64,000 nt of DNA from Eledone cirrhosa (taxonomy: Eukaryota). Where the stretch lies: contig OZ024743.1 of assembly GCA_964016885.1 (NCBI GenBank), forward strand, positions 247,628,001-247,692,000, given 5' to 3'. Every line of letters starts with the position of its first letter. Positions within the stretch are counted from its first letter, which is position 1. Under the pieces are notes generated by a model, which had not been told where the DNA came from, made no database searches, and saw only the letters and a list, made by a program, of their open reading frames with translations. The translations under genes were made by a program, and so were the position numbers. Positions 20,591 through 54,240 of the stretch are shown in pieces.

Positions 20591-21134
20591 AAAATGATTA
20601 TTTATTTGATAACAATACCTGCTTCAACACACGATTTTACATCAAGTACCTTGTAAATATCAAAACAAAATTTCAAATTATGTTTTCAAAATAATTTTAC
20701 TGTCAAGCTGTTTTTTTTTCTTGTCTATTGTGCTACAACAGTCATTGCCCTAATTGTACCTCCTACACTATTCTATTCCTTCTATAAACTATGATGCACT
20801 CAAATCACATTTCCTTTTGGCAATTCTAATATCTATATACTCACAGACTTATAAAACTCACACGTCTTCCGTTTAGTTATTAAATATTTACTACAGCCTG
20901 CAATTATTTCTCCCCCCCCCCCTCTCTCTCTCACTCTTTCTAAGAGATGTCAACATGAATGGACCTGTTATTTTTATCTAAAGACATTTTTTCCAACCCC
21001 CCCCCCCCCCAATCTATCTTATTTCACATTCTTTCTTCCTGCTATATCAAGCGTTAACCTAATATATCCCTTTCATATACTGTACCGATTGTGTTGTTAT
21101 TTCTGCTTACCTTTTACATACATATATATATATA

Positions 21135-25290: not shown

Positions 25291-25334
<44 letters not shown>

Positions 25335-25861
25335 ATATTTGGGGAGGGTCATATTTGCGTAATATTGCCAGAATTAATAACAGAACACACTCACTGTTTG
25401 GTTGGTTTTCGCTTCTCGCTGTCTTTTATATATATATATCTGCGATCTAACTTACTCGGTCCTCAATGTTGCCATTGACTGACCGGCGGTCAAAAATAAT
25501 ACAGATACAATATAGACAAACACATATATATATAGTTTACATAAATCTTTCGTTGCACATCTGCAACATCGTCAGTGGTGTTATATTCATTGTTCCTCCT
25601 GTTGTGTTGTATGTCTACGCCATTTTTTTTTTTTTTTTTGTTCAGTCTGTCTATATATTTATTTATTTATTTGCTTGTTTGTTTATCTTATTTTATTTTG
25701 TCTTCTTTGCGCATGCGTTTGCGTGTGTGTATAGTGTTATGTGTGATGTGTGATGTGTGACTAGTGTGTATAGTGTTGTCTGCTGGGTGACTAGTGTGTG
25801 TTTATGTGCTTGTGTATGTATTTATTTATCTTATTTTATTTAATTTAATTTACTTATTTAT

Positions 25862-27799
25862 TTATACTTCTCTTAGGTCAGTGTTGTTTGTTTGGGTGTT
25901 GTTGTTGTTCCACTCATTCTTTCTGTTTAGCTTTGGTCTTCTAATTTCTATTTCACTGGCCTCTCTGATTTGCCTATCTGCTGGGTCATTCCTATGTTTA
26001 GATATTATTCTAATTTCTATGTTGTCTATGTTACCGTCATGATGTTGTCTAGCATGTTCGTATAGTACTGACCCGTTTTTTCGTCCTTTTAGTTCCCCCC
26101 AGTGTTGGTCTATCCTTTCACCTATGCTACGAGCTGTCTCACCTATGTATGTTGTTGTCGTGTTTCTGCAAGTACCCTCTGTACATCTTATGCTATAGAC
26201 TACGTTTCTAGTTTTACAGTTTATCCGGGGGTTCACCTTACATATGATACATTTCCTATTGGTACAGTGGGTTTTCTTAAAAGGGTAGGTTTTGCTGATC
26301 AGGGATTTTATGGTGGTTCCTGGCTTTTCTACCACCTTTATTTTTAAGTGGGTCTTTCTCAGGGCCTTTCTACACTGGTTAGCTAATTTCCCTCCAGGGG
26401 TGGCGTCCACAAACATGACACTCTGATATCTCTGGTTGTCGTACCATGATGTGGCCTTCCCTATCTTATGTCTAGCCCTATCTAAGCTATTCCATGATTT
26501 GCTCCTGTATAGTGGGCAAATTCCTTTCATGTCCAGTTCTATGAGGGTCTTATACTTTTCCATGGCTCCTTCGTATACTCTGACTCTGTCTCTTTGGTTG
26601 TAGCCAGAGAACTGCATGCGGTTGATGAAGTGTTGGATGTGTCCTTCCATTTCTGTTGGGTCGCACATGCTGGACACATTCTTCATCACTCGTACCAAAT
26701 CTGCGATCAGAATATTAAACTTAGCACTACTGGACATTGCTGAGTTTTTGAGTATCAGGTATTTGGAGGCCATGGGTTTAGCATAGTGTGAGTGGAGAAT
26801 TTGGGCTCTCTCGTCTATAGTGTTAATCCAGAGTTCTGTGTCTAATACAGGTAGTCTATTGTTAGGGTGTTTGGAAGGGAAGTCTATAGTTACAGTTATA
26901 CTCTGGTGTATGGAATTAGCTATCTGCTGGATGCTTTCCATCGTGCTACGTTCTAAATCAAACTTGTTAGTGCTCTCTAGTGGGGGTGTTCTTATAACTA
27001 TATTGATATCGTCTACATAACGAGAGTACATGATGAGGTCTATGGAGCTTTCATTAAGGAGATCTTTAAGTCTCCTTTCCCACCATACCATGAAAAGGTT
27101 GGCAACATCGCCAGCTATGCTGACGCCGATGGCTGCTCCCTCATTTTGGGTGTAGATTTTCTCATTGAACTTAAATATGTGGCCCTTTAGGGTAGTTTTG
27201 ATACTAGCCCCTATTGCATGTGCGACCATTTTTCTTACCTGATCAGTGTTTTGGGGGGTCCGTATAGCTTTGGTCCACCCAATCCACCTTCCTATGGGAG
27301 TCTTTTTAGCCATTGAGGTTATGGTGGGGGGTCTACCTCTTATAGGTCTACTAGGGCAGAAACATCTAAGGTCATGGCTGTCTAGGTAGTCAGTGTCGTA
27401 GGTAAGTCTAAGTAGGAGGCCCAGTTCGTCTGTGTCGACGTCGCAGAACTCCACCTCACTCTCAATGATCATCTCCACACATCTTTTCACAGCAAAATCA
27501 ATGTTAATGGATGGGTACAGTGACACCACATCCATGCTGCCTATTATGCAGTTGGATAGGCTCCTGTTTTTGTTGCACTCACTGATTCTGCTGAGGAGGT
27601 CCTCTGTACTTTCACATACATCTGGGGACATCTTGATTATGGGGCGTATAACCATTGAGAGGAAGTAGGAGATCCTGTAGTTGCTAGCTATATTAGCTCC
27701 GCATACAGGTCTTGTTGGTGGTCCTATTGTCGGGTCGTCGACTGTCTTGTGGTCTTTGCGGAGCCCATACAAGGGTGGTATGCCATTGTTAGACGCCTG
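25862..27799 (-). CDS. PLE RT + GIY-YIG ORF, 5'-truncated but uninterrupted (left arm)
   Basis: LYGLRKDHK, PTRPV, SMDVVSLYPSI, GAAIG..A.LFM, RYVDD, CxxxxCxxC, NVVY..C...YIGET.R...R..H. First ~62 aa of the listed 707-aa ORF are antisense of the right arm. Confidence 0.9.
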   Translation of the reverse strand, partial: QASNNGIPPLYGLRKDHKTVDDPTIGPPTRPVCGANIASNYRISYFLSMVIRPIIKMSPDVCESTEDLLSRISECNKNRSLSNCIIGSMDVVSLYPSINIDFAVKRCVEMIIESEVEFCDVDTDELGLLLRLTYDTDYLDSHDLRCFCPSRPIRGRPPTITSMAKKTPIGRWIGWTKAIRTPQNTDQVRKMVAHAIGASIKTTLKGHIFKFNEKIYTQNEGAAIGVSIAGDVANLFMVWWERRLKDLLNESSIDLIMYSRYVDDINIVIRTPPLESTNKFDLERSTMESIQQIANSIHQSITVTIDFPSKHPNNRLPVLDTELWINTIDERAQILHSHYAKPMASKYLILKNSAMSSSAKFNILIADLVRVMKNVSSMCDPTEMEGHIQHFINRMQFSGYNQRDRVRVYEGAMEKYKTLIELDMKGICPLYRSKSWNSLDRARHKIGKATSWYDNQRYQSVMFVDATPGGKLANQCRKALRKTHLKIKVVEKPGTTIKSLISKTYPFKKTHCTNRKCIICKVNPRINCKTRNVVYSIRCTEGTCRNTTTTYIGETARSIGERIDQHWGELKGRKNGSVLYEHARQHHDGNIDNIEIRIISKHRNDPADRQIREASEIEIRRPKLNRKNEWNNNNTQTNNTDLREV

Positions 27800-27800
27800 A

Positions 27801-29555
27801 TGTGAAAGTACAGAGGACCTCCTCAGCAGAATCAGTGAGTGCAACAAAAACAGGAGCCTATCCAACTGCATAATAGGCAGCATGGATGTGGTGTCACTGT
27901 ACCCATCCATTAACATTGATTTTGCTGTGAAAAGATGTGTGGAGATGATCATTGAGAGTGAGGTGGAGTTCTGCGACGTCGACACAGACGAACTGGGCCT
28001 CCTACTTAGACTTACCTACGACACTGACTACCTAGACAGCCATGACCTTAGATGTTTCTGCCCTAGTAGACCTATAAGAGGTAGACCCCCCACCATAACC
28101 TCAATGGCTAAAAAGACTCCCATAGGAAGGTGGATTGGGTGGACCAAAGCTATACGGACCCCCCAAAACACTGATCAGGTAAGAAAAATGGTCGCACATG
28201 CAATAGGGGCTAGTATCAAAACTACCCTAAAGGGCCACATATTTAAGTTCAATGAGAAAATCTACACCCAAAATGAGGGAGCAGCCATCGGCGTCAGCAT
28301 AGCTGGCGATGTTGCCAACCTTTTCATGGTATGGTGGGAAAGGAGACTTAAAGATCTCCTTAATGAAAGCTCCATAGACCTCATCATGTACTCTCGTTAT
28401 GTAGACGATATCAATATAGTTATAAGAACACCCCCACTAGAGAGCACTAACAAGTTTGATTTAGAACGTAGCACGATGGAAAGCATCCAGCAGATAGCTA
28501 ATTCCATACACCAGAGTATAACTGTAACTATAGACTTCCCTTCCAAACACCCTAACAATAGACTACCTGTATTAGACACAGAACTCTGGATTAACACTAT
28601 AGACGAGAGAGCCCAAATTCTCCACTCACACTATGCTAAACCCATGGCCTCCAAATACCTGATACTCAAAAACTCAGCAATGTCCAGTAGTGCTAAGTTT
28701 AATATTCTGATCGCAGATTTGGTACGAGTGATGAAGAATGTGTCCAGCATGTGCGACCCAACAGAAATGGAAGGACACATCCAACACTTCATCAACCGCA
28801 TGCAGTTCTCTGGCTACAACCAAAGAGACAGAGTCAGAGTATACGAAGGAGCCATGGAAAAGTATAAGACCCTCATAGAACTGGACATGAAAGGAATTTG
28901 CCCACTATACAGGAGCAAATCATGGAATAGCTTAGATAGGGCTAGACATAAGATAGGGAAGGCCACATCATGGTACGACAACCAGAGATATCAGAGTGTC
29001 ATGTTTGTGGACGCCACCCCTGGAGGGAAATTAGCTAACCAGTGTAGAAAGGCCCTGAGAAAGACCCACTTAAAAATAAAGGTGGTAGAAAAGCCAGGAA
29101 CCACCATAAAATCCCTGATCAGCAAAACCTACCCTTTTAAGAAAACCCACTGTACCAATAGGAAATGTATCATATGTAAGGTGAACCCCCGGATAAACTG
29201 TAAAACTAGAAACGTAGTCTATAGCATAAGATGTACAGAGGGTACTTGCAGAAACACGACAACAACATACATAGGTGAGACAGCTCGTAGCATAGGTGAA
29301 AGGATAGACCAACACTGGGGGGAACTAAAAGGACGAAAAAACGGGTCAGTACTATACGAACATGCTAGACAACATCATGACGGTAACATAGACAACATAG
29401 AAATTAGAATAATATCTAAACATAGGAATGACCCAGCAGATAGGCAAATCAGAGAGGCCAGTGAAATAGAAATTAGAAGACCAAAGCTAAACAGAAAGAA
29501 TGAGTGGAACAACAACAACACCCAAACAAACAACACTGACCTAAGAGAAGTATAA
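27801..29555 (+). CDS. PLE RT + GIY-YIG ORF, 5'-truncated but uninterrupted (right arm)
   Basis: Translation identical to the left arm over the listed 557 aa. Confidence 0.9.
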   Translation, partial: CESTEDLLSRISECNKNRSLSNCIIGSMDVVSLYPSINIDFAVKRCVEMIIESEVEFCDVDTDELGLLLRLTYDTDYLDSHDLRCFCPSRPIRGRPPTITSMAKKTPIGRWIGWTKAIRTPQNTDQVRKMVAHAIGASIKTTLKGHIFKFNEKIYTQNEGAAIGVSIAGDVANLFMVWWERRLKDLLNESSIDLIMYSRYVDDINIVIRTPPLESTNKFDLERSTMESIQQIANSIHQSITVTIDFPSKHPNNRLPVLDTELWINTIDERAQILHSHYAKPMASKYLILKNSAMSSSAKFNILIADLVRVMKNVSSMCDPTEMEGHIQHFINRMQFSGYNQRDRVRVYEGAMEKYKTLIELDMKGICPLYRSKSWNSLDRARHKIGKATSWYDNQRYQSVMFVDATPGGKLANQCRKALRKTHLKIKVVEKPGTTIKSLISKTYPFKKTHCTNRKCIICKVNPRINCKTRNVVYSIRCTEGTCRNTTTTYIGETARSIGERIDQHWGELKGRKNGSVLYEHARQHHDGNIDNIEIRIISKHRNDPADRQIREASEIEIRRPKLNRKNEWNNNNTQTNNTDLREV

Positions 29556-29841
29556 ATAAATAAGTAAATTAAATTAAATAAAATAAGATAAATAAATACA
29601 TACACAAGCACATAAACACACACTAGTCACCCAGCAGACAACACTATACACACTAGTCACACATCACACATCACACATAACACTATACACACACGCAAAC
29701 GCATGCGCAAAGAAGACAAAATAAAATAAGATAAACAAACAAGCAAATAAATAAATAAATATATAGACAGACTGAACAAAAAAAAAAAAAAAAATGGCGT
29801 AGACATACAACACAACAGGAGGAACAATGAATATAACACCA

Positions 29842-29885
29842 CTGACGATGTTGCAGATGTGCAACGAAAGATTTATGTAAACTAT
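29842..29885 (+). ncRNA. Hammerhead-ribozyme-like motif in PLE pseudo-LTR
   Basis: CTGACGA-t-gttgca-gatg-tgcaac-GAAA; core mirrored at 25548-25575 (-), homolog 31528-31555; stem I not convincingly formed. Confidence 0.6.
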
Positions 29886-30128
29886 ATATATATGTGTTTG
29901 TCTATATTGTATCTGTATTATTTTTGACCGCCGGTCAGTCAATGGCAACATTGAGGACCGAGTAAGTTAGATCGCAGATATATATATATAAAAGACAGCG
30001 AGAAGCGAAAACCAACCAAACAGTGAGTGTGTTCTGTTATTAATTCTGGCAATATTACGCAAATATGACCCTCCCCAAATATAACAATATCTGTTTCGAC
30101 ACACGATTTCATATAAAAAACCTCGCAA

Positions 30129-30208
<80 letters not shown>

Positions 30209-30302
30209 ACATACATACATATATACATATACACACATATACACATATATACAAACACATATATATACATATATACACACATATATATAAATACACACAC
30301 AT

Positions 30303-30375
<73 letters not shown>

Positions 30376-30379
<4 letters not shown>

Positions 30380-31748
30380 TTTTGCGAGGTTTTTTATATG
30401 AAATCGTGTGTTGAAACAAATATTGTTATACTTGGGAAGGGTCATATTTGTGTAATAATATTGTAATATTGCCAGAATGGAAAGACACATCCAGCACTTC
30501 ATCAACCGCATGCAGTTCTCTGGCTACACCCAAAGAGACAGAATCAGAGTATACGAAAGAGCCACGGAGAAGTATAAGACCCTCATAGAACTGGACATGA
30601 AAGGAATTTGCCCATTATACAGGAGCAAATCATGGAATAGCTTAGATAGGACTAGACATAAGACAGGGAAAGCCACCTCATGGTACGCCAACCAGAGATA
30701 CCAGAGTGTCATGTTTGTGGACGCTACCCCTGGAGGGAAATTAGCTAACCAGTGTAGAAAGGCCCTGAGAAAGACCCACTTAAAGATCAAGGTAGTAGAA
30801 AAGCCAGGAACCACCATAAAATCCCTGATCAGCAAAACCTACCCTTTTAAGAAAACCCACTGTACCAATAGAAAATGTATCATATGTAAAGTAAACCCCC
30901 GGATAAACTGTAAAACTAGAAACGTAGTCTATAGCATAAGATGTACAGAGGGTACTTGCAGAAACATGACAACAACATACATAGGCGAGACAGCTCGTAA
31001 CATAGGTGAAAGGATAGACCAACACTGGGGGAACTAAAAGGACGAAAAAACGGTTCAGTACTATACGAACATGCCAGACAACAACACGACGGTAACATAG
31101 ACAACATAGAAATTAGAATAATATCTAAACATAGAAATGACCCAGCAGAGGCCAGCAAAATAGAACTTAGAAGGCCAAGGCTAAACAGAAAAAAATGAAT
31201 GGAATAACAACAACACCCAAACAAACTGATCTAAGAGAACAACACTGACCTAAGAGAAGTATAAATAAATAAATAAATAAATACACACACAAGCACAATA
31301 ACAACAAACACATATAAACACACACTAGTAAACTAAGATAGAATACAATAACCAATACACAGTCACCCAAACAAGAACACACATAAAAAAAAACACTATA
31401 CACACACGCAAACGCATGCTCAGAGAAGACAAAACATAAATAAATAAACAAATAAATAAATAAATAAACAGACTAAATAAAGATGGCGTAGGCATACAAT
31501 GCAACGGGAGGAAACATAACAGCACCACTGACGATGTTGCAGATGTGCAACGAAAGAATAGACTATATATATGTGTTTGTGTCTATATTGTATCTGTATC
31601 TTTGACCGTTGGTCAGTCAATGGTTACATTGGGGACTGAGTAAATTAAATTAACCGATATAAAAGACACAGAAGCGAAAACCAACCAAACAGTGAGTGTG
31701 TTCTGTTATTAATTCTGGCAATATTATTACACAAATATGACCCTCCCC
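30376..31748 (+). mobile_element. Second copy of the same PLE family, 5'-truncated, with ~100-bp inverted 3' end
   Basis: ORF 30477-31037 closely resembles the C-terminal third of 27882-29555; frameshift near 31030; 30376-30478 is the reverse complement of the element 3' end including the tail. Confidence 0.9.
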
Positions 31749-32099
31749 ATATATATATATATATATATACACACATAAACATGCCCAAATGCAGGTACAT
31801 GTGTACGCACGTACACACAGCGATATGCATACAAACGAACGGCCACTCATACAAATACATTCAAACATGTACTCATAAATATACACATATACACAGGCTC
31901 ATAAAAACAGCTCTACAAGCAGAAAATGCAGTTAGGTAAGAGGTACTTACATAACCATAGTTCCGTGTTTCAGGTTGAGGAGGGGTAGGGGTGGGGTGGG
32001 AAGGAGGTAGAGGGGCTATTTTGTCGGCTGGCGTTTAAAAAAAAAAAAGGTGGAAGCCGTTTTTAGCCATCGGGCATTAACACTGGCTTAAGGCATTTA

Positions 32100-33620
32100 A
32101 AAGTTGCAAAGATTTTGTGCATGCAGTTCGGGTAGTGTTCAGAGAGTTTGTTCAGTAGCGGGCCCTTAATTTAATAAAATTTCGTAGCTCTCTGAGATAC
32201 AAAGATCGCAGCACTTGTGTCCTCCGTTGTATGAGCGCGCTTTCTGGAGTATTTTCCATTTAAGCGTGAAGGGGGTGGAGTTCCTTTTGAGGTCCCAAAC
32301 ATAGGAGGCGAGGGTTGTCTGGTTTGATTTGTCCGGTCTTCTGTAGGAGTGGGTATGGGCATACCACCGGGTCTTAAAGTTATTGGAAGCCATGCCAATG
32401 TAAGTCTTTTTGTTGTTGCAATCATCGGTGCCTGAGATGACATCGCATTTGTATACGATATCATTTGTCAGGCATTTGTTTTCAAGTGGGCAGGCTTCCT
32501 TATTTAGGCAATTACATAAGGCCCCAGTTTGGGGACCGGGTTCGGAGGTGGTTGGCTTATTTAATTTTTTAGAATTGTGATTGGCTATATTCCTAGCTAG
32601 GCTAGGTGTGGTGGAGTAGGAGAGTCTTATTGTGTTCTTATTAAAGATGGTGTAGTATCTATGTTGTATGGGGAAGTGTGTGTTCAGCAAAGTGAAGAAA
32701 TTCCTAGCTATAGGTGTAGAGACCTCTCTATTGAAGGGAGGGTTGTACCAGCTAATCTGCCTATGCCTATTCCTCCTATGCAGTCTTGCGGTGGTTTCTA
32801 GGTAGGTTATCTTTTCTTTAAATCCGCTGCGGTCGAGGGCGTCGTTGTGGTAGGAGGCAGAGGCGTTAAAAATATCTTCATTGGCAGAGAGGCCAGAGAT
32901 TCTAATAGAGACGCTTTTTACTAAGTTATCAGTGATGTTTTTGGGGTGGTTAGAATTAACATTAATATATCTAAGGGACTCATTTGGTTTGTGGTACGGG
33001 TAATAGAGGGAAGTATCTAGGTCGAGAGTGACATCTAAAAAGTTGGCCCTAGTCATATTAGATTCTATAGTTATACTAAATCCTAGATTACGGAAGAACG
33101 AGCTTAAGTTTCTCCGAAACCCATCGGTGGTTCTGGGGTTAACCTTGTGCAGGTCGAAGAGGCCGTCGTTTCAGTATAAACCTCCGGTTAGGCCAGTAAA
33201 GAGGTTCTTCAGGTGGCGTAAAATGTACCGGCCCACAAGGTCGCTAATTTCAGCCGAGTCACTCGCTCCCATGCTGACGTCAAATGGGGTCTGAGACTTC
33301 TTGTTGATCCAGTAAGATCCATCATGGTATAGGAAGGTCTTACGGGCATGGAGGATAACATCTTGCTCAGCATCGGTTATGGTGGTAAAATTTCTGGCAA
33401 AGGTAATTGCGTCCTTCAGGAGGGGCTCCGAGAAAGAAGCATAGTAGTTTTCTATGTCGAGTTGCAGGAAGCGAGTGTGGCGTTTGTCGGGTAATTCTTG
33501 GAACCAAGATATTGCCTCAGATGTTCTGCTCCAGAGTGGGAGTGGTGAGGCAGCCCGCAATGATAGTAGAACTCTATCTAGGATCTTCTTACTGATAGAG
33601 CCGATGTCCGAACGAGTGGG
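32100..33620 (-). pseudogene. PLE of the YRDD-type lineage (RT + GIY-YIG), inactivated
   Basis: FLQLDIENYY, FDVSMGASDSAEISDLVG, GLY*NDGL, NFLDVTLDL, HP, CNC..CPL..C..IVY, YIGM, CDLC. Confidence 0.9.
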
Positions 33621-33758
33621 GTGTATGTGTTTATGTATTTTGTATATGTGTATATATATGTGTGTATATATGTGTATATATGTGTATGTAGATGTGTTTG
33701 TATATATGTGTATATTTATATGTATGTATGTTTGTATATATGTATGTATATGTATGTG

Positions 33759-34385
33759 TCAGGTCACCAGTTGGTGCTACTGGTAACATGTATCCCAGTA
33801 CAACCTGTCTCATGGTCGGGTCGTTGGCGACTGAACTGGCAACCCCACCAAGGTTTCTTGGTGAGGAGCGTGACTTTGGACATCCTGCAGGACTAAAGGC
33901 AAAACCTGTCAAAGGGCAAAGGAGCTCTTAAGAGTCAATGGCCATCCAAAATCACCGGGAGAGATGACCCCTTAGCCTTTGTCAAGGAAGAATTCTAGGA
34001 GAAGGAAAACTCTGATATAACACCTGCAACTCTGATGGTATCCAATGATGTTGACTTGTTCTTCTTTTTGGTAAATATCATCTTGGTTTAGAGAATGGGA
34101 CTGGCTTTGTGCAGTGCCTTTGCTCACTATAGAAGCTTCACGGCACAGGCATTGCTTTATATCTGGAGATCTCTCTGCACTTGTCGTCACATGGTACCAT
34201 GGGCCCAGCACTATGTGTCAATAATTGTCACAAGTGTAGTGTTTGTACCAGAGTTTTCACGTCGCTGGCTGGACTAAAAAGTCACACTCATTCAGCGCAT
34301 CGGTAGGGGTTCTCCTACATGGATATAAAGTAGTGGCCGTACTCGAAAACGAGTTGGCAGCCACCATATGCATGTGTATGTATGT
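33759..34385 (+). mobile_element. Non-coding retroposon (~620 bp) with RTE-5'UTR-like head and (ATGT)n tail
   Basis: Contains ctggcaacccc and ctaggagaaggaaaactctga motifs; partial copies at 3944, 19316 and ~49688-50075; TATG flanks. Confidence 0.65.
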
Positions 34386-34388
34386 GCC

Positions 34389-34968
34389 CTCAAGCACTAT
34401 CTCGACCTTCGCCCTTCCCTCCACCCCCACCCTCCTTCGCCTCGCCGAGCTGGTCCTCACCCTCAACTGTTTCTCCTTCTCGGGTGAGTTTTACCAACAG
34501 GTCACGGAGGTAGCCATGGGCACAAACTATTCCAACCTTTTCGTTTGCCATGTTGAGGCCCAAATCTTTGCCCAGTACACCGGCCCCACGCCCGAACTGT
34601 ACGGTCGTTACATCGACGACTGTATCGGAGCCACGACCCTCATCCGAGAACAGCTCGACTCCTTTCTCTCCTTCTTCTGCTCTTTCCACCCCTCCCTCCA
34701 CTTCACCACCTCTATCGCCACCACCCACGTCCACTTCTTAGACATCTCCATCGCCTTCGACCCCTCCCACCACTCCCGCGTCACATCCGCCTTCTTCAAA
34801 CCCACCGACTCCCACTCCTACCTCGATTTCACCTCCTCCCACCCTCCACACACTAAACACTCTATTCCTTACTCCCAACTCCTCAGGATCCGCCGCCTCT
34901 GCAGCCGAGATGCTGACTTTGAGTCCCAGGCCATTTCCCTCGTCAGCCATTTCATCTGCAGAGGTTAA
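34389..34968 (+). mobile_element. Neptune-like PLE RT fragment, C-rich
   Basis: LLRLAELVLTLNCFSF...VAMGT...RYIDDC...FLDISI...KPTDSHSYL..SSHP..TK.SIPYSQLLRIRRLCS. Confidence 0.85.
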
Positions 34969-35299
34969 CCCCCCCCCCCCGCCGTAGAAAACCCGCCAGA
35001 CGTGTAGGTGTCACGACAATAAAACACACAGTCCACGGTGTAATGTGGCCGTGTAGGTAACACGGTAAAATCCTCCCAGTCCACACTGTAAACGTGGTTG
35101 GTGTTAGGAAGGGCATCCAGCCGTAGAAAACCCGCCAGACAGTCCTGAGCAAGACAACCAATCTTGCCTCAAGTGGGACAATTCCCGTCCAGACCCATGC
35201 TAGCGTGGAAAATGGACGTTAAACGATGATGATGATGATGATGATGATGTATGTGTGTGTATATATATATATATATACACATACAAAAAAAAAAAAAAA

Positions 35300-35550
35300 T
35301 TTGTCCGGGAAAGACTGCCCTAACACCGGCCAGAGTTACCTCCCTTGACCTGCTGCAAAATCAAAACAACCTATTTTTGCGAGCAATGAACCTTGATCTG
35401 GATTTAACCTCCAAAACTCTTTCCGAGCAATACAAGGAACACTTTTGATTATTTATGCCCTTGAGAAGCCCAACTGGGCGAAACGTACGTAGGTGCTGTT
35501 TTAAATAAACATGTTTTAACGGTCTATTCTCCGATTTTTTACTTTCCCAC
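35300..35550 (+). mobile_element. Short PLE 3' end with variant hammerhead-like motif
   Basis: TTGAGAA-gccc-aact-gggc-GAAA-cgtacg-TA at 35461-35491 just after a stop codon; TA-repeat flanks. Confidence 0.45.
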
Positions 35551-36319
35551 GTATATATATATATATATCGTTTCTGAATTTGTTTAGCAAGATTCTTTAT
35601 CTGAAATCGTGTGTTGAAACCGATATTGTTATACTTTGGGAGGGTCATGTTGCCAATAAGAAACACACGCACCAGTTGCTTTCACTTCAATTTATTATAA
35701 TAAATTTATAAATTTATAAATTTCTGGTTGGTTGGTTGGTTCCACAACCAGATAGTTGTTTATATATTGTCATAATTCTTTCGTCACACACTCTGTGACC
35801 TCTTCAGTGACTGGGGATTCTTTTCTTTGTTTCTGTGCCTCTCCTTTGTTCTGTCCTACGCCATTGTCCTACGTAGTGTAGGAGAACGGATAAATGAACA
35901 CTGGCGAGACCTTCAAGATAGTAAAGAATCATCTGTACTCTACCAACATGCTAAAATAGAACACAAGGGTAAATTAGAGAACATAGAAATAAAAATAGAA
36001 TCTACACACAGAAAAGACGCAATGTTTAGACAAATTACAGAGGCAATAAACATAAAAGAATTACAACCAAAATTAAATAGAAAATATGAGTGGAACAGCA
36101 ACATCACAACTTACAATTAAGGACAAAATGAAAACACACACACACATAGAACAAACAACCAACCAGTAACATGTAAATAAACAAATAAATAAATGAACAT
36201 AAACACACAGACACCCGGATGTGGCGCATGCGCAGACTGAGCACACAACACACACACAGAAACAAAATGGCGTAGGACAGAACAAAGGAGAGGCACAGAA
36301 ACAAAGAAAGGAATCCCCA

Positions 36320-36362
36320 GTCACTGAAGAGGTCACAGAGTGTGTGACGAAAGAACTATGAC
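36320..36362 (+). ncRNA. Minimal type-I hammerhead ribozyme motif
   Basis: gtca-CTGAAGA-g-gtcaca-gagtg-tgtgac-GAAA-gaac-TA-tgac: stem I gtca/tgac, 6-bp stem II; mirror copy 35769-35811 (-). Confidence 0.7.
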
Positions 36363-36430
36363 AATATATAAACAACTATCTGGTTGTGGAACCAACCAAC
36401 CAACCAGAAATTTATAAATTTATAAATTTA

Positions 36431-37136
36431 CTAGCAGTAAAGCCCGGCGTTGCTCGGGGTCGCTCAGTAGCTGTGTTAAAGTTACAATGTTAAGTTTCTT
36501 TTTTGGCTTAAAGTCTGTCTGCACGACTGTCTGTCTGCACGACTGTCTGTCTGCACGACTGTCTGTCTGCACGACTGTCTGTCTGCACGCCTAACAAAAT
36601 TTACAGATACATATATTTTAAATAAACTTATATAATTTTTGCTTTTTTTTACGAAATATTTGCTTGTTTTACGTAGTCTTTAAATAGACTTGTTTTCAAG
36701 TAAAAATATTGTTTTAAAAGGCTTTTAAATGGAAATGAAGCAAAACGGAAGCTTAGTGTTCGAACTGATGAATTTTGCAGGTCAAAATTTTGCTGGCTCG
36801 ACAACTGTTCGTGTATTGTGTTAATGTCATTTTAAACGCTGAGAAAGCCAGCGTAATTTTTTTAATTTTTGCACGCAGAAAATGTAAACAACGTAAGACG
36901 CTCAATGTAAACAGAACAAAGGGAAATAACTCGCCACTTACGCTCAAAAATCGATACATTAGATTCGATTTCGTCACATAGGGTGGGTCAATTTGAAATA
37001 TTTTTTTTCCGATGTCTTCGCTAGGGCTCAATGTACAAGTATAGCAATTTCGGTGCAATTCCGTCAGAGATTCTAAGAGGAGATGTGTGCCAAAAATCGA
37101 TAGACAGACAGACAACCACAGCTTTATATATATAGA
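36431..37136 (-). mobile_element. Non-autonomous Helitron
   Basis: 5' TCTATATATA, 3' hairpin cccgagcaacgccggg then CTAG, between A and T; absent from the mirror arm; contains a 16-bp tandem repeat (ctgtctgtctgcacga) at ~36515-36589. Confidence 0.8.
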
Positions 37137-37801
37137 TTATAAATTTATTATAATAAATTGAAGTGAAAGCAACTGGTGCGTGTGTTTCTTATTGGCAGCA
37201 TGACCCTCCCAAAGTATAACAATATATATATATATATATATATGTATATAAAATATTAAAAAAATAATGAATAAAACAATGAAACAGTTCCTTATATTAA
37301 ACAAAAAAGTTCATTATTTAACGATCGTTTCTAGGACATATATGTGTTAGAATTGGTATGCATATTCAAGAGATCTATGTACAAAATTATACAAATTATC
37401 AAATATAATATACATACCAACACATACATATGCCGTCTTCAGAAATAATGAAATATATTTATTGATAATAACAACAATTCAAAATTACAGGTCTGTTTGG
37501 GAACAGAGTTCAAATTGACCAATGAAATACACAAAAATATATCAAGAAAATACAGTTAGGTGTGTGTATATATGTAAGTAACTTCGTTCACAGATATGCA
37601 TAAAAATATATGTTCACATGCATACGCATGTCGAAAAAATGTATGTAAATACAAAAATTCAGGGCTAATGTCTCTGTATGTTTATAATCTACAGATAAAA
37701 TACACACGCATATAAACATATATAGATTCATATATACACACATATATATACACATTCACACACACACGCGCATATACACATAAACATATACATACCTACG
37801 A

Positions 37802-37875
<74 letters not shown>

Positions 37876-38138
37876 GTATATATTATTATTATAACTATAT
37901 GGATATTTAGGCGCACACATAAACACTGCCACATATATTTTTACATCCAGATGCAGAAGTGGGTAAGGGGGTCAGTAATTACTAAGGGTGTCAGAGAACT
38001 GCCTATTTATAAAATGTATCTATAAATTTAGAAATAAAAAGAAATATATTAAAAAAAAAAAAAAAAGTATAAACAAGTAAAATATATACTCATACATAAA
38101 ATACACACCGATATACATATATATATATATATACATAT

Positions 38139-38205
<67 letters not shown>

Positions 38206-38449
38206 CATATATACACACATACATACATACATACATAGAGACACATACATATACATATATAAATACATAGACACACATACAAACACACATATATATATAC
38301 ATATATTCACAACACACATACATATATACACATATATGTACACACACATACACACACATATATATATACATATATATACATACAGACACATATATATACA
38401 CACATATATATACACACATATATACATACATATATACATACACACACAC

Positions 38450-38486
<37 letters not shown>

Positions 38487-38602
38487 TACATATACGTATA
38501 TATACACACACATACACATATCCATGTATGTATATACACATACAACCACACACTCACACAACTCAGACATACATAAATAAAGAGATATACATACACACAT
38601 AT

Positions 38603-38681
<79 letters not shown>

Positions 38682-38692
38682 CATACACATAA

Positions 38693-38723
<31 letters not shown>

Positions 38724-38737
38724 TATATACATACACT

Positions 38738-38799
<62 letters not shown>

Positions 38800-39009
38800 C
38801 ACACATATATATAAGTATATATAAAAGAAATAAATAAAGAAATAAATACACAGTCAGACAATTATGCACACATATATATATATGTACATACACACATCTC
38901 TACAAATATATATACACACATACACACGCACACATACATATATACATACACACATACATATACATAGACATATATATACACACATATATATACATATACA
39001 TACATATAT

Positions 39010-39056
<47 letters not shown>

Positions 39057-39612
39057 CATAGACACTTATTTACATGCGCACATATGTATTTTTATACTCA
39101 CATATAAACACCCAAACATACATACCTACTTACATACACATACATTCATCCACGCTTACAAATACAAATAATTATAGGGGGGGGGGGATTAAAATTATTA
39201 GTGGGAAATAGTAAATATAGGTTTCAAGGAACATAGAATATTAATCTGCATTTAGATCATAATATATGTTTACATAGTAGTTTCAGTATTAGGAAATGTA
39301 AGAAAGAAGGCAAAATTATGCATTTTAATATAAGTAGACTATTAATTAAAGGTTAACTAAATTAAAATTAGTTAATATATTGATTTCTAAGGTGTATACT
39401 ACTTAGGTTTATAATATTTGAAGCGGAATTTTGAAGTTAAACAGTAGTAGAGTATTAATTATATCATAACTAAATTAAAATATTAACATTATGGTATCAA
39501 TATTAGGAAATGAATTTAGTAATAGGGAAAACCAAATCAAGTATTTCATGGGTAGTAGAATATAAATTATAGGTTAACTAAATTAAAAATTATATATATA
39601 CTTATTGAATTT

Positions 39613-41160
39613 CAGAATGAATACTGGACCAGAAACACATATAGTAATCTACTTGATATTACTATGGGTTCAAGCGATTCTGCCCAAATTACTGATCTTG
39701 TGGGCCTCTTTCTTCTTTTCAACATAAATGCTTCCTTTCCCCACCTTAAAGGTGGTTTATATCGTGATGACTGTCTTCTTCTTTCCAACAACCTTAGCCT
39801 CTCAGAAATAGAAAAAAACAAAAAGCTTATTAGAACTTTCCTTAAAGACTATTATAGTCTTCATATTACTGTTGAAAACACAAGTAAAGTTGTTAATTTC
39901 CTAGATATAACTTTAGACTTAGCTACGGGTATCTACCAACCTTACCATAAACCCAACCAAAACTTACACTACATACACTCACAATCTAATCACCCTAAAT
40001 CTATCCTTAAAAACCTTGCATATAATATATCACTTAGAATTTCTAACCTTTCGTCTAACCAAGATGTATTTGATAAAAATGCGACCTTCTATAACGAAGC
40101 TCTAGATAGAAGTGGCCACAAAAATAGATTAGAATATATACCTTCTACTAAAAATACTATAAACATACAACCTAATATTACCAACAAACACCAAATGAAA
40201 AGTACACACCTAAATGCCACCCACACTATACCCCAAAATACCAACAACTCCTCTAATATAAAGTATAGTAACTCTCAAAAAACTACTCATCATAAAACTC
40301 TAATAAATGTTAATAATAAAACTCCTAATAAACAAGATAAAACACCTAAATCAATAAATCTAACTAAAAATGTGCGTGGTGAGGTCATTAACATTAATCC
40401 TCCTAGTAAACATCACGATACAACCTATAAAAATAATAAACAACATAGAAACCGTAATAGACGAGTTACTTGGTATAATGCTCCATTTAATTTACAAATT
40501 AAGGATAATATTGCTAAAACATTTTTTTATATCCTAGAGAAAAACCTCCCGCCAAACCACAAATACCATCAAATCTTAAATAGGTCAACAGTTAAATTCT
40601 CATACTCAACAACCAAAAACATAAAACAAAATATAAGTGCCTATAATGCATATAAATGTAAAAATACCATAAGTATACCACCAATACATCAAACTAACCA
40701 TAATATCTCCTCAAATACAGAATTAACGAAAGGTTGTAACTGTAGAAACAAAGCAAACTGCCCATTAAAAGGAAATTGTCTTTTTAACAACATAGTTTAT
40801 AAATGTAAAGTTAAAACTAAAGATTCTATTTGCTCATATATAGGAGCTACTTCTAACAATTTTAAGGTAAGGTTTAATACCCACAAACATAGTTTTAAAA
40901 ATGCCGCACTGGCTAATACAACATCTCTAGCAGAAAAAATTAATAGTTATAGAAATAAGAATATAGAATATGATATGACCTGGAGGGTGCTCAAAAGAGC
41001 CACCCCTTATCAAAATAATAGAAATGAATGTAGATTATGTTCCCAAGAACTATTTGAAATAATGAAATCTAAGGATATCCTATTAAATAAGCGACAGGAA
41101 TTAATTATATCGTGTAATCATAAACTGAGAAAAACATTTAAATATTATAAACCTAATTAA
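39613..41160 (+). CDS. PLE RT + GIY-YIG ORF, 5'-truncated, open to stop
   Basis: MGSSDSAQITDLVG, GLYRDD, NFLDITLDL, SNHP, CNC..CPL.GNC..IVY, YIGAT, CRLC, LLNKR..C.HK. Confidence 0.9.
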   Translation, partial: QNEYWTRNTYSNLLDITMGSSDSAQITDLVGLFLLFNINASFPHLKGGLYRDDCLLLSNNLSLSEIEKNKKLIRTFLKDYYSLHITVENTSKVVNFLDITLDLATGIYQPYHKPNQNLHYIHSQSNHPKSILKNLAYNISLRISNLSSNQDVFDKNATFYNEALDRSGHKNRLEYIPSTKNTINIQPNITNKHQMKSTHLNATHTIPQNTNNSSNIKYSNSQKTTHHKTLINVNNKTPNKQDKTPKSINLTKNVRGEVININPPSKHHDTTYKNNKQHRNRNRRVTWYNAPFNLQIKDNIAKTFFYILEKNLPPNHKYHQILNRSTVKFSYSTTKNIKQNISAYNAYKCKNTISIPPIHQTNHNISSNTELTKGCNCRNKANCPLKGNCLFNNIVYKCKVKTKDSICSYIGATSNNFKVRFNTHKHSFKNAALANTTSLAEKINSYRNKNIEYDMTWRVLKRATPYQNNRNECRLCSQELFEIMKSKDILLNKRQELIISCNHKLRKTFKYYKPN

Positions 41161-41620
41161 TAATATATATTTTAGAAATTAATATATAATTTAATTTAAA
41201 TGTAGTTAACCTATAAATTTAATTTAATTAAAATTCTAATACAGATGAGATTAAAAAATATTGTGTAATCATAAATTGTGAAAAACTTTTAAATATTATT
41301 AACATAATTAATATATACTTTGTAAATTAATTTATAGATTAATTTTAGTTTATTTAACCTTTTATTAAAATTCCTTTACAGATGAAATATAACAAAATAT
41401 CGTGTAATCAATAACAGAGAAATATTTTTTAATATTATAAACCTAATTAATGTACAATTTAGAAATTTATTTATAAATTAATTTTAATTTAGTTAACCTA
41501 TAATTTTAATTTAACTAGCTTAAAATTAAAATTCCAATACAGATGGATTGCAGAATATCATGTAATCATAAACTGAGATAAATTTTTAAATATATACCTA
41601 ATTAATATATTCTTTATAAT

Positions 41621-41727
<107 letters not shown>

Positions 41728-42366
41728 TTTAATTTTTGTTAACCTATAATTATATTCTACTATAGATAAAATACAAAATCTGCTTTAATTATTATAAACC
41801 TAATTAACATATACTATAGAAATTAATATATAATTTTTAATTTAGTTAACCTATAATTTATATTCTACTACCCATGAAATACTTGATTTGGTTTTCCCTA
41901 TTACTAAATTCATTTCCTAATATTGATACCATAATGTTAATATTTTAATTTAGTTATGATATAATTAATACTCTACTACTGTTTAACTTCAAAATTCCGC
42001 TTCAAATATTATAAACCTAAGTAGTATACACCTTAGAAATCAATATATTAACTAATTTTAATTTAGTTAACCTTTAATTAATAGTCTACTTATATTAAAA
42101 TGCATAATTTTGCCTTCTTTCTTACATTTCCTAATACTGAAACTACTATGTAAACATATATTATGATCTAAATGCAGATTAATATTCTATGTTCCTTGAA
42201 ACCTATATTTACTATTTCCCACTAATAATTTTAATCCCCCCCCCCCTATAATTATTTGTATTTGTAAGCGTGGATGAATGTATGTGTATGTAAGTAGGTA
42301 TGTATGTTTGGGTGTTTATATGTGAGTATAAAAATACATATGTGCGCATGTAAATAAGTGTCTATG

Positions 42367-42417
<51 letters not shown>

Positions 42418-42615
42418 ATATATGTATGTATATGTATATATATGTGTGTATATATATGTCTATGTATATGTATGTGTGTATGTATATATGTATGTGTGCG
42501 TGTGTATGTGTGTATATATATTTGTAGAGATGTGTGTATGTACATATATATATATGTGTGCATAATTGTCTGACTGTGTGTATTTATTTCTTTATTTCTT
42601 TTATATATACTTATA

Positions 42616-42675
<60 letters not shown>

Positions 42676-42727
42676 AGTGTATGTATATATGTGTGTGTGT
42701 GTGTGTATATATATATTTATGTGTATG

Positions 42728-42772
<45 letters not shown>

Positions 42773-42886
42773 ATGTGTGTGTGTATATCTCTTTATTTAT
42801 GTATGTCTGAGTTGTGTGAGCGTGTGGTTGTATGTGTATATACATACATGGATATGTGTATGTGTGTGTATATATACGTATATGTA

Positions 42887-42923
<37 letters not shown>

Positions 42924-43413
42924 GTATATATGTGTGTATATATATGTGTCTGTATGTATATATATGTATATATATATGTGTGTGTATGTGTGTGTACATA
43001 TATGTGTATATATGTATGTGTGTTGTGAATATATGTATATATATATGTGTGTTTGTATGTGTGTCTATGTATTTATATATGTATATGTATGTGTCTCTAT
43101 GTATGTATGTATGTATGTGTGTATATATGTATGTGTATATATATATATATATATATGTGTATATGTATATATATGTATATCGGTGTGTATTTTATGTATG
43201 AGTATATATTTTACTTGTTTATACTTTTTTTTTTTTTTAATATATTTCTTTTTATTTCTAAATTTATAGATACATTTTATAAATAGGCAGTTCTCTGACA
43301 CCCTTAGTAATTACTGACCCCCTTACCCACTTCTGCATCTGGATGTAAAAATATATGTGACAGTGTTTATGTGTGCGCCTAAATATCCATATAGTTATAA
43401 TAATAATATATAC

Positions 43414-43489
<76 letters not shown>

Positions 43490-43854
43490 TCGTAGGTATG
43501 TATATGTTTATGTGTATATGTTTATGTGTATATGCGCGTGTGTGTGTGAATGTGTATATATATGTGTGTATATATGAATCTATATATGTTTATATGCGTA
43601 TGTGTATTTTATCTGTAGATTATAAACATACAGAGACATTAGCCCTGAATTGTTGTATTTACATACATTTTTTCGACATGCGTATGCATGTGAACATATA
43701 TTTTTATGCATATCTGTGAACGAAGTTACTTACATATATACACACACCTAACTGTATTTTCTTGATATATTTTTGTGTATTTCATTGGTCAATTTGAACT
43801 CTGTTCCCAAACAGACCTGTAATTTTGAATTGTTGTTATTATCAATAAATATAT

Positions 43855-44007
43855 TTCATTATTTCTGAAGACGGCATATGTATGTGTTGGTATGTATATT
43901 ATATTTGATAATTTGTATAATTTTGTATAATTTTTTACATAGATCTCTTGAATATGCATACCAATTCTAACACATATATGTCTTAGAAACGATCGTTAAA
44001 TAATGAA
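43855..44007 (+). ncRNA. Type-I hammerhead ribozyme with expanded stem II
   Basis: ttcattattt-CTGAAGA-[114 nt]-GAAA-CGATCG-TT-aaataatgaa; perfect 10-bp stem I; mirror at 37310-37452 (-). Confidence 0.75.
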
Positions 44008-44201
44008 CTTTTTTTGTTTAATATAAGGAACTGTTTCATTGTTTTATTCATTATTTTTTTAATATTTTATCTTGACTCTGTATTCCGTTTATCTTTCACC
44101 GAAAGTGATTTTTGAATGCATCTCTTCTTTCCATGATATCCGGATTACATTGAGTTCTTCATACGGATTGGACACTACCGTAATCTCTTGGTAGATTTAT
44201 C

Positions 44202-49606: not shown

Positions 49607-50149
49607 GGAAGTTACAATTATTATTTCTAAGTCACTTCTTTCCTGAGCAATGTCAGATTCTATTGTTACTATATGTATGTATGTATGTACAAAGGGCAGA
49701 GGAACTCATAAGAGTCAATGGCCACCCGAAAGTGTGTAAATATGTATATACACATGTACCGCGCGGTTAAACCACTGGAGTGAAGGACCCCTAGCCTTTG
49801 TCAGGGCATTCTTCTAGGAGAAGGCAACTCAGGAAACTGGGATAACTCCGATATAAAACCTGTGGCTCAGTAGTTACCGATGATGTTGATCTTTTCTTCT
49901 TTTCGGGTTATAGCTACTGTCGCTCAGAGGGTGGGATTGGCTCAGTGCACAGTCTTTCCTCACTTTAAAAAATATCTTCACGCACAGGCATTGCACGATA
50001 GAATTAATTAATAATTATTAATAATGGTATATCATGCAATGGCCATACTCGCTAACGATGGAGCAGCCATCATGTATGTATGTATGTATGTATGTATGTA
50101 TGTATGTATGTATGTATGTATGTATGTATGTATGTATGTATGTATGTAT

Positions 50150-53100: not shown

Positions 53101-54218
53101 TATTTCGTTTACCGCTTCCAATTCCAATTTAGTGGGTTCTTTACTGATTCTGGTGTTGTATGGTCTGTCACTCTGATTAAGGCTGTGTATCTCTTGAAAC
53201 ATATCGTTCCATATCACTTGTAGGGTGTCCACAAGTTTTTGGTGCTCTGTTTGTTCAGTAGACTCCTGAATTTCAGCCCCGTTGTTGATATGGTGACAAT
53301 TACTACTAGAGTTAGCTGACCTTTCTCGCTGTTCTTCAGTGGAAGTGGGATGGATTTCAGCAAAATTGTTGGTGAGCTGTTCACTGTTAGATTTAGCTGG
53401 CCATTCTCTTTGTCTGTCAGTGGAGGTGGGGTGGTTGTCTACAAGGGCTGTATTTGTAGTATCACTCAATTCCGTTAGATGTATCAATTTACATCTAATG
53501 ATACGTTTTGCCTGTTCATTTAAATGCTTTGGAGAAAAGTCTAATTCTGGGTGTTTGGAGTTCCATAAAGTTTTTAGCCTTTGCATAAAACCGAACTTTT
53601 GGGGTTCAGATTGTTTATATGCTTCATATAATACTTTATTAAGCTCGTAGCTCCACTGTGTACAGCGGTTGTAGTTGCGATTTGGTCGAAGGAGACTTGT
53701 ACTTTTTGCCATGATGAGTTCGTCTATTCACTAATATTTCGTATTTATTTTTCAAAATAGTCGATGATCTTCTTTAAAAGTTACGACAAAGTTCTGTAAG
53801 AATCAAATTTAAAGTTATTCACAGCTTGGGTAATATTTCTTTTCAGTTAGTTTTTAATTCTACAACTGTGTTTTAAACGTTGTTCTTGAATCGTTTGAAT
53901 CGAGAACAAAAAGAACCGTTACTTAGTATATTTCTTTATGAATGTAATATAATATAACAACGCTGTATTTATATGTTAAAGTTTATGTATCATTCATATA
54001 AATAGGTGTTGTACAACTTATTCACAGTTCAAACACTTATGTTTTTGTTTCTGAATCGAAAACGTTACTTGTATATTTCAAACACTTATGTAGAATTATT
54101 GTATGTAATCTTACCGCGTAATGTAGCTCAACTTTTTCCAATATATGGTATGTTGCCTTCATGTAAGCCGTAATTACACACGTCCGATTATCGGACACTG
54201 ACCACAACGGTCGCCATT
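50150..54218 (-). mobile_element. R4/Dong-clade RLE retrotransposon, apparently full length, frameshifted
   Basis: ORF start 53712; KSPGPD, NYRPIAC, GIFQGDS.S.LLF, HLFFVDDLKLY, CRLC, RHD, RPDIVV..EI; flanked both sides by (ACAT)n. Confidence 0.9.
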
Positions 54219-54240
54219 ATGTATGTATGTATGTATGTAT

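What the first reader, a model, noticed from the sequence alone, without database searches (positions are those of the whole stretch)
25327..37225. A repeated rule for fold-back PLE insertions: shared 3' terminus, tail on one arm only
Three insertions (25327-30131, 30376-31748, 35569-37225) from two families with divergent pseudo-LTRs share the terminus ATGACCCTCCC-AAA(G)TATAACAATAT-(c)..TTTC.ACACACGATTTCA.ATAAA.AA.CT.GC.AAAC. In all three the arm with the shorter 5' extent keeps the ~40-nt tail. The longer arm stops early, twice at exactly TATAACAATAT (25327, 37225), running into (AT)n. Inner junctions show microhomology or short templated duplications (gtcctacg at 35866; taatattg near 30464). 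Inference: one cDNA is primed at the RNA end and a second internally by ATAT pairing with the TA target, then the two are joined head-to-head.
Basis: partly seen in the sequence, partly recalled or inferred. Interest (0 to 1): 0.75.

Follow-up and report, generated by a model that had tools for sequence, protein, structure and literature searches.

The report
Penelope insertions primed from both ends
These three mirror-image insertions are cut-short copies of a very common Penelope-type jumping gene in a layout already described; across the genome one arm nearly always ends at one fixed point and the other arm at a second point further on (usually about 60 bases), whichever arm is longer, which suggests that each cut DNA strand likely starts its own copy of the element's RNA at a different internal site.

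Summary
The three insertions are real fold-back copies of two families of a Penelope-like retrotransposon (C-terminal GIY-YIG, CxxC linker, hammerhead cores), with 43,806 exact genome hits to the terminus. The shared terminus is the start of the ORF (MTLPKYNNI...). One-sided tail: confirmed, 93 of 96 sampled units, and about 1:1 genome-wide (19,589 tail-less, 19,286 tailed). Tail-less ends fall at one position (11,483 against at most 272 earlier). The proposed arm-length rule fails: the tailed arm is shorter in 49, longer in 38, equal in 6 (p=0.28). 'Primed at the RNA end' also fails: the ORF runs on past the tail, and both ends are internal sites ending in ATAT or TAT. Inner junctions are enriched for microhomology and templated inserts, and both arms usually share one source. 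Best reading: each nicked (TA)n strand primes its own cDNA at one of two fixed internal sites, and the cDNAs are end-joined. The layout and two internal starts are published; strict one-of-each pairing was not in the papers read, but this scan noted it before on other DNA. Added here: counts, a control site, a candidate hairpin after site 2, a 46-nt reiteration.

The parts
25327..27799 (-). Insertion 1, tail-less arm (family A): 3' part of RT, linker, GIY-YIG, pLTR and first 26 nt of the ORF, ending at ...TATAACAATAT in (AT)n
   Evidence: 99% to tandem copy L128, -2451..+25
27800..30131 (+). Insertion 1, tailed arm (family A), -2269 to about +68; open frame 27801-29555; blunt junction with the other arm at 27799/27800
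30065..30090 (+). Shared terminus = ORF codons 1-9 (MTLPKYNNI); site 1 (AATAT) at its end
30091..30131 (+). Tail of insertion 1, ending at the secondary family-A end (CTA, +68/69)
29842..29869 (+). Hammerhead core CTGACGA-stem II-GAAA in the family A pLTR (mirror copy 25548-25575; also 31528-31555)
   Evidence: activity untested; no Rfam hammerhead hit
29791..29799 (+). AAAATGGCG motif, shared by both families, where arm 5' ends pile up (candidate RNA start)
30375..30463 (-). Insertion 2, short tailed arm (family A), tail ending at CTAAT (+71)
30464..30475 (.). Insertion 2 inner junction with an 8-nt templated duplication (taatattg) followed by short microhomology
30476..31748 (+). Insertion 2, long tail-less arm (-1303), ending early at +12, a rare end type
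   Evidence: rarity shown for family B
35569..35865 (-). Insertion 3, tailed arm (family B); 54-nt tail 35569-35622; 5' end at the AAAATGGCG pile-up (-238)
35866..35871 (.). Insertion 3 inner junction: templated insert GTCCTA copied from 12 nt upstream
35872..37225 (+). Insertion 3, tail-less arm (family B, -638..+25), hammerhead core at 36324-36352
36431..37136 (.). Later 706-nt non-PLE insert inside the arm, Helentron-associated-like ends (label recalled)
   Evidence: two related copies in sampled segments

Best explanation
These are 5'-truncated insertions of a Penelope-like retrotransposon, likely made by double priming: the element's endonuclease is inferred to nick both strands of a (TA)n tract, and each 3' end likely primes its own cDNA on a read-through RNA, one at site 1 (+26 of the ORF) and one at site 2 (+86 in family B; +84, less often +69/71, in family A). 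Shown: one arm ends at each site in 93 of 96 units; both sites are inside the ORF and end in a 3-4-nt match to the target; arm lengths are unrelated to the site; both arms usually carry the same variants. Inferred: the target end pairs with AUAU/UAU while the protein, perhaps through a small hairpin at +91..+105, fixes the positions, since a better-matching site in the pLTR is almost never used; each cDNA stops independently, often at the putative RNA start near AAAATGGCG; host end-joining fuses the two cDNA 3' ends, leaving 1-4-nt microhomology, blunt joints or short templated inserts. When one cDNA is very short or absent a single-arm copy results.
For: Pairing: 93 of 96 units have one tailed and one tail-less arm (about 48 expected if each arm chose freely); genome counts 19,589 versus 19,286 and, for family B, 11,483 versus 11,874. 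Precision: at most 272 matches (multi-counted; 81 on one strand) for ends at +6..+23. Internal sites: tandem copies read through into the ORF, 446 family-B read-throughs, 12 perfect repeats of +63..+109 inside a tailed arm. Control: pLTR site ACAATATATA runs into (AT)n 15 times against 5,947 intact, and 2 of the 8 fetched are mere microsatellite expansions. Independence: Spearman 0.12, p=0.26; cDNA length T<N in 44 of 93; the tail-less arm reaches further in 49 units, which a fold-back copy of the tailed cDNA cannot do. Junctions: microhomology of 2 nt or more in 19 of 34 insert-free joints against 16% in simulated joints, p=2e-7; 6 of 15 inserts of 3 nt or more are templated against 11% shuffled. 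Same source: 278 concordant to 37 discordant subfamily sites in 41 pairs against 567 to 1480 in 205 random pairs; 49 versus 11 private shared variants. In vitro, a Poseidon protein cuts and extends both strands, starts at two internal sites bounding the tail and is modelled as a dimer (PMC11167929, parts 1-2 of 4).
Against: No step is shown biochemically. PMC11167929 found no difference in start site between strands and no homology between start site and cut DNA, so the strict pairing and the ATAT match seen here were not reproduced in that system. Target-site duplications cannot be read in (TA)n (1 of 93 flanks informative), so nick geometry and order are unknown. One RNA versus two RNAs is unresolved: no A>G excess among shared variants (9 of 37 versus 23 of 182 unshared); both arms exceed the pLTR length in 15 of 93 units; 2-4 of 41 pairs look discordant. 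Three units break the rule as called (1 tail/tail, 2 tail-less/tail-less, one of these a tail broken at +37). 87 terminal arms had no partner called, 47 of them with complex or interrupted 5' junctions. The hairpin rests on one compensatory change and has no twin after site 1.
Confidence: 0.7

Rival explanations
1. One priming event plus endonuclease resolution: a single cDNA or hairpin intermediate is made, and the tail-less end arises where the GIY-YIG endonuclease cuts the element's own DNA at a target-like ATAT.
For: [quoted passage not shown] Both ends here look like (TA)n target. It would explain shared variants between arms.
Against: A hairpin copy of one cDNA cannot give a tail-less arm that reaches further 5' than the tailed one (49 of 93). 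More target-like ATATATA runs in the pLTR are almost never ends. The two ends match RT start sites in the one system tested (PMC11167929).
Confidence: 0.13
2. Template switch to antisense: one RT starts at one site on the sense RNA, switches to an antisense RNA or strand and runs back to a fixed stop at the other site.
For: PMC3846280 (passages) proposes self-priming on an antisense template; 6 of 93 units turn at the same position in both arms, mostly at an AT palindrome; template switches occur in complex junctions.
Against: Needs a precise stop at +26 in about 98% of cases with no known cause; most turn points differ between arms and are independent; both arm types pile up at the same sense-RNA 5' motif.
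Confidence: 0.07
3. One reading: first cDNA from the RNA 3' end carries the tail and is always the shorter arm; the second is primed internally.
For: True for 3 of 3 window insertions; adding 6-8 micro-tailed arms tilts the 5'-extent count to about 57 versus 38.
Against: 49:38 overall and 33:38 in the symmetric subset; 44 of 93 by cDNA length; the tail end is internal. RNA 3' ends were not measured here.
Confidence: 0.05
4. Post-insertion rearrangement or assembly artefact (inverted duplication after a single insertion).
For: Insertion 1 arms are 100% complementary.
Against: Thousands of copies, unique junctions, fixed asymmetric ends, and the same two ends in contigs of two runs with other organism labels.
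Confidence: 0.02

Closest known systems
Insertion architecture of endonuclease-positive Penelope-like elements (PMC3846280 passages; PMC8557442 passages and supplement rows; PMC2377424 passages)
   Same: 5'-truncated copies, partial tandems, an adjacent inverted truncated copy, a tail on one of the inverted pLTRs, terminus running into the first ORF codons, asparagine-rich ORF insert, (TA)n targeting.
   Different: Main tail is 58-60 nt rather than 30-40; the passages call the tail optional, whereas here it is on exactly one arm in 93 of 96 units.
Poseidon of Anolis carolinensis, internal initiation (PMC11167929, parts 1-2 of 4)
   Same: Two internal starts inside the ORF bound the tail; both DNA strands cut and extended; AT-rich target; hammerhead motif.
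   Different: There the starts are not homologous to the cut DNA, lie in an AC-rich stem-loop at +111-118 and show no strand difference; here both end in ATAT/TAT, lie at +26 and +86, and pair one-to-one. Different clade (CxxC linker present).
L1 twin priming and dual priming (PMC2837659, passages)
   Same: Both nicked strands prime; head-to-head cDNAs joined, with variable microhomology at the inner junction.
   Different: L1 twin priming starts at the poly(A) end plus a variable internal site and gives non-overlapping fragments of a minority of insertions; here both starts are fixed and internal, arms overlap in sequence, and it is the usual outcome.
Nematis/Neptune clades of PLEs (PMC8557442)
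   Same: C-terminal GIY-YIG with CX4CxxC linker and CCHH residues; the short linker resembles the Nematis rows by eye.
   Different: Large N-terminal and Asn-rich extension (1,317 aa); clade not placed on a tree.

Membership tests
EN+ Penelope-like element | Single ORF with RT and C-terminal GIY-YIG endonuclease | tested here: met
   Intact 1,317-aa family-B ORF in L222; GIY-YIG PF01541 E=1.9e-5 on its C-terminal 134 aa; RVT_1 E=1.3e-4, below the curated cut-off, for the window ORF; whole-ORF Pfam scan gave no hit.
EN+ Penelope-like element | Tandem or partial-tandem pLTR organisation with inverted truncated copy and one-sided tail | tested here: met
   Tandem arrays L128 (4147-nt period), L222, L223; 93 of 96 units.
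EN+ Penelope-like element | Hammerhead motif in the pLTR | tested here: inconclusive
   CTGAnGA-stem II-GAAA in both families with different paired stems (141 matches); stems I and III minimal; Rfam found no hammerhead at E<=5; cleavage untested.
EN+ Penelope-like element | RT groups with PLE/telomerase RTs | not tested
   No labelled reference sequences could be given to the tools; DKSG and YVDD motifs seen; 89 homologues, nearly all unnamed.
Nematis/Neptune | CX2-5CxxC linker upstream of GIY-YIG and CCHH residues | tested here: met
   C-IDKK-CITC then C...VYSIRC...C...YIGE...H...H, definition from PMC8557442.
Nematis versus Neptune | Phylogenetic placement | not testable with these tools
   Only compared by eye with supplement rows: short linker is Nematis-like.
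Naiad/Chlamys | N-terminal endonuclease | tested here: not met
   Endonuclease is C-terminal.
Hydra | CCHH absent, CxCX5C linker, DKT motif | tested here: not met
   CCHH residues, CX4CxxC and DKSG present.
L1-type twin priming | First primer at the RNA 3' end, non-overlapping inverted fragments, flanking TSD | tested here: not met
   Both ends internal and arms overlap; TSD unreadable in (TA)n. It works like dual priming but is not the L1 case.

The most novel reading that the evidence does not exclude
Double priming is the standard integration route of this PLE clade: a dimer nicks both strands of (TA)n and assigns one strand to each of two fixed internal RNA sites 60 nt apart, positioned by a conserved hairpin just beyond site 2 and locked by a 3-4-nt base-pairing with the target, as telomerase aligns its primer; the RT can even realign and repeat a 46-nt template segment. 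This would explain the tail, the inverted arm and the microsatellite bias together.
Probability: 0.45. Interest if true: 0.65.

Novelty: new member of a known kind. Interest (0 to 1): 0.42.

Why it matters
How Penelope-like elements build their inverted, one-tailed insertions is an open question in the papers read (PMC8557442, PMC11167929). About 20,000 ends of each type in one genome give sharp, testable predictions: strict one-of-each use of two sites, a short base-pairing at both, and independent cDNA lengths.

Tried and rejected
Arm-length rule: rejected. RNA-end priming of the tailed arm: rejected. Structure in the tail: single-sequence folds z = -0.58, -0.32, +0.76; no consensus pair on 30 of 81 distinct tails. 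Extra nucleotide-level constraint on the terminus: identical codons 11 of 17 versus 312 of 577 elsewhere, p=0.46, although amino-acid identity there (18 of 22) is above the rest of the N-terminus (99 of 219). A-to-G editing as a single-molecule mark: no excess. TSD search: 1 of 93, 0 of 923 shuffled; uninformative. RNA data: only two RNA runs with 6-7% of the words, contigs only, no start, end or expression evidence. Rfam: only (AT)n/microRNA chance matches. PDB: only a weak GIY-YIG match, E=0.22. Twin hairpin after site 1: not found. Search for third-family read-throughs gave 11 hits, 2 true read-throughs, both with the family-B hairpin unchanged. Family A counts for long (2,156) and short (490) tails use patterns of unequal breadth and are lower bounds only. 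Paper searches found no paper stating strict pairing or double priming for PLEs; Arkhipova 2006, Evgen'ev and Arkhipova 2005 and Pyatkov 2004 were not read and may hold it; figures and the bioRxiv supplements were not visible; the text supplements of PMC11167929 had no hit for tail or inverted.
Full report
Observation. Insertions 1 and 2 belong to one family (A), insertion 3 to another (B). Each has one tailed and one tail-less arm, the tailed arm being the shorter in all three. The duplications taatattg and gtcctacg are real; insertion 1 has a blunt joint.

Identity. The terminus motif has 43,806 exact matches in the 3.0-Gb genome and none for the reversed control. Tandem copies show that it is the start of the [12 protein letters not shown]. 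Family B has an intact 1,317-aa ORF in L222; the sampled family A array is frameshifted. [quoted passage not shown] The closest named protein is from Octopus vulgaris (69%); the host was not pursued further. Both pLTRs carry a hammerhead core that Rfam did not detect. Sharing of the terminus between families needs no more than protein conservation: synonymous identity is not raised (11 of 17 versus 312 of 577, p=0.46).

Sample. I fetched all 151 stretches built around the first listed hits on contig C1 (0-29.3 Mb) and merged them with search loci into 154 segments, 772,294 bases. Seeds were exact motifs of both end types, so old and very short arms are under-sampled. 96 head-to-head units were called; 87 terminal arms had no partner called.

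One-sided tail. 93 of 96 units have one arm of each type, where free choice predicts about half. Genome-wide there are 19,589 tail-less and 19,286 tailed exact ends. In family B 11,483 tail-less ends fall at +26 against at most 272 matches, multi-counted, for earlier ends; 11,874 tails end at +86 and 446 read on. Contigs of two runs with other organism labels show the same two ends, a weak extra.

Arm-length rule. The tailed arm is shorter in 49 units, longer in 38, equal in 6 (p=0.28); 41:30 in 77 simple units; 33:38 when both arms reach the ATG. By cDNA length it is 44 of 93, and lengths are uncorrelated. Six to eight further tail-less arms have a tailed partner of under 20 nt; adding them gives about 57:38 by 5' extent, still no rule. 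Three of three by chance is 0.13-0.18.

Both ends are internal. The tail is codons 9-29 of an ORF that continues. Family B ends at AATAT (+26) and AAATAT (+86); family A at AATAT (+26) and at TAT (+84) or CTA/AAT (+69/71), where its best match to (TA)n lies. In L224 a tailed arm consists of 12 identical repeats of +63..+109 before the normal end, so its template ran past the tail end, though later slippage may have amplified a first duplication. Matching is not enough: a 7-nt match in the pLTR runs into (AT)n 15 times against 5,947 intact, and a TATA seven bases before site 1 is rarely used. Earlier scan notes on Hydra-type elements (e1-8804881, e1-10350054) prompted a search for a hairpin after each site: a 5-bp stem at +91..+105 is the only in-register 5-bp stem shared by A and B in the first 720 nt and differs by one synonymous compensatory pair; pairing probability 0.99 in B, 0.27 in A; there is no twin after site 1. 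This is a lead resting on one event. The tail itself shows no conserved structure.

Inner junctions. Of 62 well-resolved joints (77 simple one-tail units plus 3 others examined; poorly anchored ones dropped), 19 have microhomology of 2 nt or more, 8 of 1 nt, 7 are blunt, 13 have 1-2-nt and 15 longer inserts; microhomology is enriched (19 of 34 versus 16%, p=2e-7) and 6 of 15 long inserts are templated versus 11% shuffled. This resembles polymerase-theta-type end joining (recalled label).

Template. Arms share subfamily and private variants far above random pairs (278:37 versus 567:1480; 49 private in 41 pairs versus 11 in 205), so both usually come from one source locus. One molecule is not shown: no A>G excess (tested after note e1-10280452), and 15 of 93 units have both arms longer than the pLTR. 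Arm 5' ends of both types pile up at AAAATGGCG (family B 23 of 187 in 26 nt, 3.9 expected; family A 10 of 92, 4.0 expected), a candidate RNA start; RNA data could not test it. Some arms span more than one unit (L128/L228, L229, L230), so templates can be multimeric.

Mechanism. Best reading (0.7): both nicked strands prime, one at each fixed internal site, and the cDNAs are end-joined. A fold-back of one cDNA is excluded for the 49 units whose tail-less arm reaches further. Rivals are endonuclease resolution of a DNA intermediate (0.13) and a switch to an antisense template (0.07). Nick geometry is unreadable in (TA)n.

Literature. Inverted copy with a tail at one end, and a terminus covering the first ORF codons: PMC3846280 (passages), PMC8557442 (passages), PMC2377424 (passages). 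Two internal RT starts bounding the tail, both strands extended: PMC11167929 (parts 1-2 of 4), which reports no homology at the starts and no strand difference. Twin and dual priming in L1: PMC2837659 (passages). PMC13282606 and bioRxiv 10.64898/2026.07.22.740005 (passages) added nothing on mechanism. Seven searches found no statement of strict pairing; older subscription papers were not read. The scan itself reached double priming on other windows and genomes; these notes are not counted as support.

Verdict. A real, very abundant, known kind of insertion. Interest 0.42.

Noticed in passing
L224 (G000:C1 about 132,947,000-132,947,600): Tailed arm made of 12 identical 46-nt repeats of ORF +63..+109 plus the normal end, joined to a 40-nt tail-less arm; looks like repeated realignment of the RT on a short template stretch, telomerase-style, or later slippage.
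   Followed up: partly
L128/L129/L228, L222, L223, L229, L230: Near-identical multi-unit tandem arrays (over 3 units in L128/L228) still bounded by one tail-less and one tailed end; suggests multimeric or circular templates. Both families carry long Asn-rich ORF inserts; L222 holds an intact 1,317-aa ORF.
   Followed up: partly
window 37248-44070: Inverted duplication with 2.4-kb arms (92% alike) of microsatellite-rich flank around a second RT/GIY-YIG-like ORF (39559-41160) and a 139-nt tandem repeat.
   Followed up: no
window 32166-33600 (-) and 34240-34968 (+): Fragments of two further, unrelated PLE-like ORFs (GIY-YIG E=0.006 for the first).
   Followed up: no
window 36431-37136: 706-nt insert with ACTAG...CCCGGCG and AGCTTTATATATATAG ends and a 16-nt tandem repeat; Helentron-associated-like (label recalled); two relatives in sampled segments.
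   Followed up: partly
window 29699-29799, 31412-31488, 36224-36272: GCGCATGCG palindrome upstream of AAAATGGCG is kept in both otherwise divergent pLTRs; resembles NRF1 and YY1 promoter motifs (recalled) and coincides with the pile-up of arm 5' ends.
   Followed up: partly
L137 (G000:C1:16998103-16999097): One fold-back unit flanked by a direct duplication of at least 60 nt, the only informative flank among 93.
   Followed up: no
six sampled units, e.g. L187, L211, L035: Both arms stop at the same position, mostly in the TTTATAAATTTATAAA palindrome, giving perfect hairpins with up to 26-35 nt of overlap.
   Followed up: partly
window 20609-20674: Decayed tail-like fragment (77% to family B +16..+86) without (AT)n flank.
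   Followed up: no
window 50127-51777 and 54218-55888: 1.7-kb direct duplication (97.7%) within LINE-type RT fragments.
   Followed up: no
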